Origin: Escherichia coli | GTDB lineage: Bacteria; Pseudomonadota; Gammaproteobacteria; Enterobacterales; Enterobacteriaceae | DNA: 896 nt | Reading direction: 5' to 3' (one strand) | Assembly (NCBI RefSeq): GCF_003334305.1 | Contig: NZ_QOWS01000065.1 | Shown here: one piece after another, positions 1-896 of the stretch | Layout: each line of letters starts with the position of its first letter | Position numbering within the stretch: the stretch's first letter is position 1 | The notes under the pieces: model-generated | Told to the model about the DNA's origin: nothing | Databases searched by the model: none | Seen by the model: the letters and a program-made list of their open reading frames with translations, nothing else | Translations under genes and position numbers: made by a program

Positions 1-896
1 TTCGGGCGGACGCTGACTTTCCACCGGGCAGCTAAGGGTGACGTGGCGGGCGCGGTGACGGGGGTGACGGACGGCGCGGGCCGCCGTTTTCACCTGGCGC
101 TGACCACGCAGGCGCAGCGGGCGGAAGCCTTCCGTAAACAGCGCGCCACGTCTTTATCTTCCCCTGCCGGTCCCCGTTCTGCTTCCTCTTCTTCTGCTTT
201 CCCCGACACGCTGCCCGCCGGTACAGAATACGGTGCCGATAACGGTATCCGGCTGGAGGCGGTGTGGCTGACACACGACCCGGCATACCCGGATGAACAG
301 CCGACTGCGCCGCTGGCGCGCTACACGTACACGGCCAGCGGAGAACTGCGGGCGGTGTATGACCGCAGCGGAACGCAGGTGCGCGGGTTTACTTATGATG
401 CGGAGCACGCCGGGCGGATGGTGGCGCACCATTATGCGGGGAGGCCGGAGAGCTGCTACCGGTATGATGATACCGGTCGGGTGACGGAGCAGGTCAACCC
501 GGAGGGGCTGGACTACCGCTTTGAGTACGGAGAGAGCCGGGTAATCATCACGGACAGCCTGAACCGGCGGGAGGTGCTGTACACGGAAGGCGAGGGTGGC
601 CTGAAGCGGGTGGTGAAGAAGGAACATGCGGACGGGAGCATTACCCGCAGCGAGTATGATGAGGCGGGGAGGCTGAAGGCACAGACGGATGCGGCGGGGC
701 GGCGGACGGAGTACAGCCTGCATATGGCGTCGGGTGCGGTGACGGCGGTGACGGGGCCGGACGGCAGGACGGTGCGGTATGGCTATAACAGCCAGCGGCA
801 GGTGACGTCAGTGACGTACCCGGACGGGCTTCGCAGCAGCCGGGAGTATGATGAGAAGGGAAGGCTGACGGCGGAGACCTCGCGCAGCGGTGAGAC
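1..896 (+). CDS. Rhs-family YD-repeat protein, internal fragment of the conserved core (5' and 3' ends both outside the window)
   Basis: Seen in sequence: frame 1 is open across all 298 complete codons (1-894) with no stop. Translation begins FGRTLTFHRAAKGDVAGAVTGVTDGAGRRFHLALTTQAQRAEAF and ends YPDGLRSSREYDEKGRLTAETSRSGE. It contains repeated YD-repeat units (RYTYTASGELRAVYD, GFTYDAEHAGRMVAH, YRYDDTGRVTEQ, SEYDEAGRLKAQTD, VRYGYNSQRQVTSVT, REYDEKGRLTAET). Codons strongly favour G/C, especially G, at the third position (acg, gcg, cgg, ctg, gtg, gag). Established knowledge: these motifs and the conserved blocks DSLNRREVL, GLKRVVKKE and AQTDAAGRRTEY are characteristic of enterobacterial Rhs core proteins. 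No database search was run; the paralog or subfamily cannot be assigned from memory, so no gene symbol is given. Confidence 0.93.
148..207 (+). repeat. Low-complexity Ser/Pro-rich segment (TSLSSPAGPRSASSSSAFPD) encoded by a pyrimidine-rich tract, including an in-frame (tct)3 run at 187-195
   Basis: Seen in sequence: nt 151-205 are almost entirely C/T on the + strand (tctttatcttcccctgccggtccccgttctgcttcctcttcttctgctttcccc), in sharp contrast to the G-rich codons on either side. In frame 1 this gives a serine/proline-rich stretch with four consecutive Ser codons (tcc tct tct tct). Confidence 0.6.
454..495 (+). repeat. Canonical YD-repeat unit (CYRYDDTGRVTEQV)
   Basis: Frame 1 codons 152-165 match the Y-R-Y-D-x-x-G-R-(V/L) core of the YD-repeat consensus almost perfectly. 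Confidence 0.8.
646..687 (+). repeat. Canonical YD-repeat unit (RSEYDEAGRLKAQT)
   Basis: Frame 1 codons 216-229, E-Y-D-x-x-G-R-L-x-x-x-T-D motif. Its nucleotide sequence is an imperfect direct repeat of 838-879. Confidence 0.8.
838..879 (+). repeat. Canonical YD-repeat unit (SREYDEKGRLTAET)
   Basis: Frame 1 codons 280-293, E-Y-D-x-x-G-R-L motif. Shares gagtatgatgag...aggctga with 652-676. Confidence 0.8.

What the first reader, a model, noticed from the sequence alone, without database searches (positions are those of the whole stretch)
52..765. Tandem 9-nt gtgacggNN duplications encoding V-T-x-V-T, present at two separate sites (55-72 and 739-756)
gtgacgggg-gtgacggac at 55-72 (V-T-G-V-T-D) and gtgacggcg-gtgacgggg at 739-756 (V-T-A-V-T-G) are each two tandem near-identical 9-mers, preceded by the same gcg in both places. 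They encode the V-T-x-V-T-D-x-x-G-R half of the YD repeat. Tandem in-frame 9-mers are a candidate slippage site and show that the protein repeat is conserved at the nucleotide level.
Basis: seen in the sequence. Interest (0 to 1): 0.2.

Follow-up and report, generated by a model that had tools for sequence, protein, structure and literature searches.

The report
Slippage-prone codon repeats in Rhs gene
The repeated 9-base words are an ordinary by-product of a repeated protein motif in a well-known E. coli Rhs toxin-shell gene, written in the gene's favourite codons. One of the two sites does occasionally gain or lose a unit in natural strains, with no sign that this has a function.

Summary
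GTGACGG occurs 5 times in the window against 0.26 expected, and both tandem 9-mer pairs are in frame at the stated coordinates. A third pair at 802-819 was missed.

The window is an internal piece of an E. coli RHS element core gene, which encodes the YD-repeat "cocoon" of a type VI secretion (T6SS) polymorphic toxin. In a predicted structure, each V-T-x-V-T is the 5-residue first strand of a YD β-hairpin. It is spelled with the gene's preferred codons: GTG for 16 of 18 Val, ACG for 20 of 29 Thr. Diverged alleles keep the motif with other codons.

Junction probes against 5,426 complete E. coli genomes support the slippage idea for site 2 but not site 1:
- Site 2: 1-copy allele in 16 genomes, 3-copy allele in 1, against at least 1,103 genomes with 2 copies.
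- Site 1: no ±9 nt allele, although at least 2,035 genomes carry the tandem.
- Other events at GTGACG/GACGG words: −9 at site 3 (1 genome), −63 joining sites 2 and 3 and removing one whole YD repeat (3), −19 (3) and −17 (2), both frameshifts.
- Controls: 20 random deletions and about 80 probes at other direct repeats gave no such allele.

This is classical direct-repeat-mediated indel formation in a known gene. There is no evidence of function. Interest is low.

The parts
1..896 (+). Internal part of an RHS element core protein gene. Frame 1 is open throughout. The window corresponds to about aa 219-516 of a protein of about 1,410 aa.
   Evidence: Translation. The window is 99.8% identical to NZ_CP019250 'RHS element core protein', with matches in 2,623 of 5,426 E. 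coli genomes. A full-length homologue 95% identical to the window scores 2,601 bits on NCBIfam NF041261 RHS_core, cut-off 2,000. Pfam RHS_repeat matches 5 times.
55..72 (+). Site 1: tandem GTGACGGGG-GTGACGGAC encoding V-T-G-V-T-D, the first strand of a YD-like hairpin. No ±9 nt alleles were found.
   Evidence: 8-nt exact repeat at spacing 9. Predicted strand E19-23. The exact 30-mer is present in 2,035 genomes. Deletion and insertion probes gave 0 hits.
37..53 (+). A 17-nt segment between GGTGACG at 37-43 and GGTGACG at 54-60. It is deleted in 2 genomes, causing a frameshift.
   Evidence: H49 B27, annotated 'frameshifted'; H50 EC05 matched the same probe and was not inspected. Repeat listed.
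736..756 (+). Site 2: GCG-GTGACGGCG-GTGACGGGG, 19 nt of perfect period 9, encoding A-V-T-A-V-T-G, the first strand of a YD hairpin. It is polymorphic for 1, 2 or 3 copies of the 9-nt unit.
   Evidence: TRF. 10-nt exact repeat. Predicted strand E247-251 at high confidence (block-mean pLDDT about 87-97). The 1-copy allele is in 16 genomes and the 3-copy allele in 1. The 2-copy exact 30-mer is in 1,103 genomes, plus about 110 with the T735C variant.
741..759 (+). A 19-nt segment between GACGGC at 741-746 and GACGGC at 760-765. It is deleted in 3 genomes, causing a frameshift.
   Evidence: H53 and H55 inspected, CDS annotated 'frameshifted'; H54 matched the same probes.
802..819 (+). A 1-copy allele occurs in 1 genome.
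   Evidence: (D4). Predicted strand E268-272. H31 carries a 9-nt deletion.
748..810 (+). A 63-nt in-frame segment, exactly one 21-aa YD repeat, between GTGACG of site 2 unit 2 and GTGACG of site 3 unit 2. It is deleted in 3 genomes.
   Evidence: H69 aligned and its CDS annotated intact; H70 and H71 matched the same probe and were not inspected.

Best explanation
The window is part of an E. coli Rhs core gene. This gene encodes the YD-repeat β-cocoon that encapsulates the C-terminal toxin of a T6SS-delivered polymorphic toxin.

In this allele family, the first strand of three successive-type hairpins has the sequence V-T-x-V-T, followed by the x-(P/G)-D/A-G turn. The G+C-rich gene writes Val almost always as GTG and Thr mostly as ACG, so the peptide motif becomes two adjacent GTGACGnnn words. 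This much is shown.

The words have no sequence-level function. They behave as short direct repeats that occasionally misalign during replication or repair. The products are ±9 nt at site 2 and −9 nt at site 3. Pairing with other GTGACG/GACGG copies gives −17, −19 and −63 nt. The alleles are shown; the misalignment mechanism is inferred from the fact that every junction falls exactly on a repeat.

In-frame products shorten or lengthen one strand or loop, or remove one whole YD hairpin pair. In the records inspected they sit in genes annotated as intact, so they appear to be tolerated (inferred). Out-of-frame products give pseudogenes.
For: Gene identity. vgrG lies directly upstream in O157 and B27.

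Codon bias: GTG encodes 16 of 18 Val and ACG 20 of 29 Thr in the window; the figures are 70% and 57% across the whole homologue.

Structure: the three V-T-x-V-T peptides are exactly strands E19-23, E247-251 and E268-272 of predicted hairpins. Solved Rhs cocoons are sequence homologues. The cocoon architecture is described in PMC8765631, and G residues at 9-11 aa intervals in PMC2935791.

Indel alleles: the junction probes were validated in silico so that the normal allele cannot seed a match. They found six distinct indel alleles, all bounded by GTGACG/GACGG repeats.

Controls: 0 of 20 random 9-nt deletions, 0 at 15 other short-range repeats and 0 at about 30 other long-range repeats.

Repeat length: the site with the longest perfect repeat (10 nt) is the only one showing both gain and loss.

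Background: several different events sit on the same common haplotype.
Against: The 16 genomes with the 1-copy allele may descend from one or two events spread by recombination. Their haplotypes are identical from about window position 618 onward. The number of independent events is therefore small, and a true rate excess over other sites is not quantified.

Site 1 has an 8-nt repeat in twice as many genomes yet shows no ±9 nt allele. Repeat length alone does not predict the outcome. Selection on the nearly invariant VTDGAGR may remove such alleles.

The +9 allele and the site 3 −9 allele each rest on one assembly.

Nucleotide identity is somewhat higher than codon resampling predicts (joint p about 0.001, post hoc). 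Codon bias alone does not explain this.
Confidence: 0.85

Rival explanations
1. Pure coincidence. The tandem words are only codon bias on a repeated peptide and are mutationally inert.
For: Diverged alleles and paralogues use other codons and show no 3-aa indel at these positions among 120 representatives of 90%-identity clusters. Site 1 has no ±9 nt allele. Each tandem alone has a 6-13% chance under codon resampling.
Against: 1-copy and 3-copy alleles exist at site 2. There are also −9, −17, −19 and −63 nt alleles whose junctions all fall on GTGACG/GACGG words, while control probes found no allele.
Confidence: 0.05
2. Programmed contingency locus. Copy number of the 9-nt unit is a selected, rapidly switching variable that tunes the Rhs shell, for example cargo fit, release or antigenicity.
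For: Both gain and loss alleles exist at site 2. The in-frame variants inspected lie in genes annotated intact. An entire YD repeat can also be lost in frame.
Against: There are only two units and the unit is a multiple of 3, so no on/off switch is possible. Variants make up about 1.5% of alleles carrying the tandem (17 against at least 1,213 genomes). Four of the seven inspected 1-copy genes are annotated as frameshifted, and one of those is also incomplete. The tandem itself is absent from diverged alleles.
Confidence: 0.02
3. The indel alleles are sequencing or assembly artefacts at a short repeat.
For: The +9 allele (CH4799) and the site 3 −9 allele (158274-3) each come from one assembly. 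Several of the records are whole-genome-shotgun chromosome assemblies.
Against: The same −9 allele occurs in 16 complete genomes from different laboratories, hosts and countries and on at least two flanking haplotypes. Indels of 9 to 63 nt are not the usual homopolymer-type long-read error.
Confidence: 0.05
4. The tandem state itself was created or homogenised by past slippage. A −9/+9 cycle would copy one V-T-x unit over its neighbour, which would explain why nucleotide identity exceeds codon-bias expectation.
For: The joint probability of the three exact tandems under codon resampling is about 0.001. Other alleles have non-identical units at the same positions (L-T-S-V-I-L, I-T-D-I-T-T). Both −9 and +9 alleles exist today.
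Against: The third codon differs between units at all three sites. The statistic is post hoc on sites chosen for this feature.
Confidence: 0.15

Closest known systems
E. coli Rhs core proteins (RhsA-H; NCBIfam NF041261 'RHS element core protein')
   Same: The window is 91-99.8% identical in DNA to annotated Rhs core genes in about half of all complete E. coli genomes. A full-length homologue passes the equivalog cut-off. The gene has YD repeats, is G+C-rich, has vgrG upstream and a downstream dsORF.
   Different: Nothing differs at the gene level. The best-matching copy is itself annotated as frameshifted and sits among IS elements.
YD-repeat β-cocoons of solved Rhs/Tc/teneurin proteins (for example P. 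protegens RhsA 7Q97, P. aeruginosa Tse5 8CP6, S. bongori Rhs core 8QJD)
   Same: There are significant sequence matches (E from 8e-30 to 1e-17). The predicted fold is a series of antiparallel hairpins, as described for the cocoon (PMC8765631).
   Different: No structure exists for this E. coli protein. The effect of a 3-residue or 21-residue deletion on the shell is untested.
Classical direct-repeat indel hotspots, such as the lacI (CTGG)3 ±4 nt hotspot and deletions between short direct repeats in lacI (from my own knowledge: Farabaugh et al. 1978; Albertini et al. 1982)
   Same: Indel length equals the repeat spacing. The junctions lie on the repeats. Both gain and loss of one unit occur at the longest perfect tandem. 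Longer deletions occur between dispersed copies of the same word.
   Different: The evidence here is natural polymorphism in genomes, not measured mutation rates. The 9-nt unit is in frame, so products can stay functional.
Simple-sequence contingency loci (phase-variable genes of Neisseria and Haemophilus)
   Same: Copy-number change of a tandem unit inside a gene for a surface or competition factor.
   Different: There are only 2 units, the unit is a multiple of 3, variants are rare (about 1.5%), and the tract is not conserved. The locus does not behave as a switch.

Membership tests
RHS element core protein (NCBIfam NF041261, equivalog) | The whole protein scores above the curated cut-off of 2,000 bits. 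| tested here: met
   The O157 homologue (95% identical to the window across the window) scores 2,601 bits over aa 1-1253. The window itself is only a 298-aa fragment.
RHS element core protein (NCBIfam NF041261, equivalog) | Multiple RHS/YD repeats (Pfam PF05593, TIGR01643). | tested here: met
   The window has 5 RHS_repeat matches, 4 of them with E below 0.001. The homologue has 11 Pfam matches with E below 0.001 and TIGR01643 at 169 bits.
RHS element core protein (NCBIfam NF041261, equivalog) | Rhs-associated core domain (TIGR03696) at the end of the core, followed by a variable toxin tip. | tested here: met
   TIGR03696 matches aa 1176-1253 of the homologue at 88 bits. This region lies outside the window.
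T6SS-delivered Rhs effector | Genetic linkage to vgrG or another T6SS spike gene. | tested here: met
   vgrG lies directly upstream in O157 7.1_Anguil and in B27. In the best-match locus (13KWH46) the upstream neighbours are IS elements and small ORFs instead.
YD repeat (site-by-site) | The tandem lies inside a segment recognised as an RHS/YD repeat. | tested here: inconclusive
   Sites 2 and 3 lie inside Pfam matches at aa 243-276 and 267-297. Site 1 is not covered by any Pfam match. It has only a non-significant alignment to Tse5 residues 160-180 and a predicted hairpin of moderate confidence.
Direct-repeat (slipped-strand) indel hotspot | Indel junctions coincide with the repeats and indel length equals the repeat spacing. 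| tested here: met
   This holds for the −9/+9 alleles at site 2, −9 at site 3, and the −17, −19 and −63 nt alleles.
Direct-repeat (slipped-strand) indel hotspot | Comparable sites without such repeats show no such alleles. | tested here: met
   None of 20 random in-frame 9-nt deletions was found. Of 27 testable probes at other short repeats, only the −19 probe, which overlaps site 2, detected an indel allele. No other long-range probe did either. These are lower bounds, because each probe needs an exact 28-mer.
Direct-repeat (slipped-strand) indel hotspot | A measured mutation rate elevated over the background. | not testable with these tools
   This needs a fluctuation or reporter assay, or a phylogeny-aware count over all gene copies.
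Phase-variable contingency locus | A long tract whose length changes switch expression on and off, or length variants that are frequent among strains. | tested here: not met
   There are two units of 9 nt, in frame. Variants occur in 17 genomes against at least 1,213 with two copies. The tandem is absent from diverged alleles.

The most novel reading that the evidence does not exclude
Length variation of individual YD hairpins (±3 aa) and loss of whole YD repeats (−21 aa), produced by misalignment of the GTGACG codon words, might be a selected way for E. coli to retune the Rhs cocoon. It could, for example, adapt cavity size or plug fit after a new C-terminal toxin is acquired. Past −9/+9 cycles might have homogenised the motif.
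Probability: 0.03. Interest if true: 0.4.

Novelty: already known. Interest (0 to 1): 0.13.

Why it matters
It matters little. The gene family, the YD-repeat fold and direct-repeat-mediated indels are all textbook. The analysis does show concretely where an Rhs core tolerates small in-frame length changes and where it breaks into pseudogenes. That could be useful when annotating Rhs pseudogenes or choosing permissive sites for engineering the cocoon. It does not open a new question.

Tried and rejected
- RNA element or structure at the sites: there was no Rfam match. Single-strand folding of the three sites is unremarkable, with z from −0.6 to −1.5.
- Genes on the other strand: the antisense ORFs (for example 154-723, 189 aa) were judged the usual artefact of a G+C-rich gene. 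They were not pursued, because the + strand frame is a strongly supported Rhs gene.
- 3-aa indels across species and paralogues: none was found at the three sites among 120 cluster representatives. These clusters, at 90% identity, cannot resolve rare alleles.
- A 684/693-nt deletion between site 1 and site 2: the probes hit only a T735C synonymous variant with normal copy number.
- Deletions or duplications at the 192-nt higher-order repeat, at 15 other short repeats and at about 30 other long-range repeats: none was found.
- Untestable probes: four short-range duplication probes and two long-range probes were not detected in the in-silico test of designed alleles, probably because of low-complexity masking. 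A fifth duplication probe was dropped because it cross-hit the normal allele.
- One event or several for the 16 one-copy genomes: this stayed unresolved. There are two flanking backgrounds, but the sequences are identical near the site.

Full report
**What is in the window**

Frame 1 of the + strand is open over all 896 bases. The DNA is 99.8% identical to an annotated 'RHS element core protein' gene of E. coli 13KWH46. It matches 2,623 of 5,426 complete E. coli genomes, in most of them at 90-99% identity. In 13KWH46 the gene lies among IS elements next to pptA/yddH/nhoA and is followed by 'dsORF-h1'. In O157:H7 and B27 the orthologue directly follows vgrG.

The window protein carries five Pfam RHS_repeat matches between aa 110 and 297. 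A full-length homologue of 1,410 aa scores 2,601 bits on NCBIfam NF041261 RHS_core, against a cut-off of 2,000. It also has DUF6531 at aa 47-123, RHS repeats from aa 325 onward, and the Rhs-associated core domain at aa 1176-1253. Solved Rhs cocoons (Tse5, RhsA, the S. bongori Rhs core and others) are significant sequence homologues. The window is therefore an ordinary piece of the YD-repeat shell of a T6SS Rhs polymorphic toxin (background: PMC2935791, PMC8765631).

**Checking the observation**

Both are in frame and each is preceded by GCG. GTGACGG occurs five times against 0.26 expected. Tandem Repeats Finder reports only 736-754.

**Why the words are there**

In an AlphaFold2 model (mean pLDDT 79, above 85 for aa 120-298), the three V-T-x-V-T peptides are exactly the 5-residue first strands of three hairpins: E19-23, E247-251 and E268-272. 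Each is followed by the x-P/G-D/A-G turn and the second strand.

The gene writes Val as GTG in 16 of 18 cases and Thr as ACG in 20 of 29 cases in the window. Across the whole gene the figures are 70% and 57%. The peptide motif therefore tends to become GTGACGnnnGTGACG.

With the protein fixed and codons resampled, each site reaches its observed repeat length in 6-13% of trials. All three do so together in about 0.1% of trials. Codon bias explains most of the identity, but perhaps not all of it.

The nucleotide tandem is not conserved. Other E. coli alleles read ATCACCAGG-GTGACGGAC at site 1. At site 2 they read CTGACTTCA-GTGATACTG or ATCACGGAC-ATCACCACA, and O157 has GTGACA. Across paralogues and other genera, what is conserved is the peptide pattern. 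At sites 2 and 3 it is [VIL]-T-x-[VIT]-[TVI]-x-P-D-G. At site 1 it is x-[VI]-T-x-V-T-D-G-A-G-R.

**Testing the slippage idea**

I designed 39-45 nt junction probes for loss or gain of one unit at each of the three sites. Each probe was built so that the normal allele cannot supply the 28-nt exact word that megablast needs. I verified this on synthetic alleles. Results against the 5,426 genomes:

| Event | Genomes |
|---|---|
| Site 2, 1-copy allele, exact match | 16 |
| Site 2, 3-copy allele | 1 |
| Site 3, 1-copy allele | 1 |
| Site 1, ±9 nt | 0 |
| 17-nt deletion between GGTGACG 37-43 and 54-60, next to site 1 | 2 |

Alignment confirms each of these in otherwise 91-97% identical orthologues. 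The in-frame variants in O111 11128, TW10722, ECL27977, CH4799 and 158274-3 lie in CDSs annotated as intact. The 17-nt deletion is annotated 'frameshifted' in B27, the one carrier inspected.

Denominators come from exact 30-mers. The site 2 tandem is in 1,103 genomes, plus about 110 carrying a T735C variant. The site 1 tandem is in 2,035 genomes, and site 3 in its TCA form is in 927.

**Controls**

A second probe set covered 16 other short direct repeats (6-8 nt, spacing 3-30) and 20 random in-frame 9-nt deletions without microhomology. The random deletions gave no hits. The only indel allele detected at the repeats was a 19-nt frameshifting deletion between GACGGC 741-746 and 760-765, which overlaps site 2, in 3 genomes. 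Two further 28-nt partial matches lay in a truncated Rhs copy and were not indel alleles.

A third set covered about 30 long-range direct repeats of at least 8 nt, plus the pairing between sites 2 and 3. It found one real allele: a 63-nt in-frame deletion joining GTGACG of site 2 to GTGACG of site 3. This removes exactly one 21-aa YD repeat. It occurs in 3 genomes, and the CDS of the one inspected is annotated intact.

The hits on the 684-nt deletion probe proved to be the T735C variant with normal copy number. All six distinct indel alleles found therefore have junctions on GTGACG/GACGG words.

**Limits**

- The probes need an exact 28-mer, so all counts are lower bounds. Some duplication probes were untestable.
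- The 16 one-copy genomes fall on two flanking backgrounds (35-36 substitutions apart) but are identical near the site. One event plus recombination cannot be told apart from recurrence.
- The +9 allele and the site 3 −9 allele each rest on one assembly.
- No mutation rate was measured.
- Site 1 shows no ±9 nt allele despite being present in about twice as many genomes. This may reflect constraint on the nearly invariant VTDGAGR, but that is inference.

**Other readings**

There is no Rfam family in the window and no unusual single-strand structure at the sites. A phase-variation role fails its defining tests: two units only, an in-frame unit, variants at about 1.5%, and a tract absent from diverged alleles.

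**Verdict**

The idea that the repeat is conserved at the nucleotide level is largely codon bias. This is classical direct-repeat-mediated indel formation inside a well-known gene, with no evidence of function. Interest is low.

Noticed in passing
It has a 1-copy allele in one genome. It also pairs with site 2 to give a 63-nt deletion of one whole YD repeat in three genomes.
   Followed up: yes
window ~145-215 (aa 50-72), preceded by aa 37-53: A Ser/Pro-rich low-complexity linker, predicted disordered (pLDDT below 50), follows a predicted helix. It contains a TCT run at 187-195 with a +3 nt allele in strain TB06053. Most indels among protein homologues fall in this linker. It may correspond to the linker or seal region described for other T6SS Rhs proteins, but this was not tested.
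   Followed up: partly
window 27-62 and ~732-896: The alleles are mosaics. Blocks of high divergence end at the second unit of site 1 in some strains and begin at site 2 in others. This suggests recombination between Rhs core alleles.
   Followed up: partly
window 735: A synonymous T735C variant in about 110 genomes makes the left flank of site 2 identical to that of site 1 over 15 nt (CGGGCGCGGTGACGG). No 684-nt deletion allele was found.
   Followed up: partly
L024 1502 (window 457 onward); H28/H29 (window 579 onward): Truncated Rhs copies begin inside this segment and abut a truncated tssM gene in several strains (EcPF16, KFu022, 2e, CUVET19-2242). These look like deletion or rearrangement scars at a T6SS locus.
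   Followed up: no
window 462/654/846 and 652/844: There is a higher-order 192-nt (64-aa, three-repeat) periodicity. GTATGATGA recurs at 462, 654 and 846, and a 12-nt exact repeat GAGTATGATGAG occurs at 652 and 844. No deletion or duplication alleles were found at these positions.
   Followed up: partly
L001 1-16896: In the best-matching strain (13KWH46) this Rhs core is annotated as frameshifted. It lies in a cluster with a second disrupted Rhs core and IS3, IS1, ISAs1 and IS4 family elements next to pptA/yddH/nhoA.
   Followed up: no
window 154-723, minus strand: A 189-aa antisense ORF lies opposite the Rhs frame. It is probably a by-product of the G+C-rich codon pattern.
   Followed up: no
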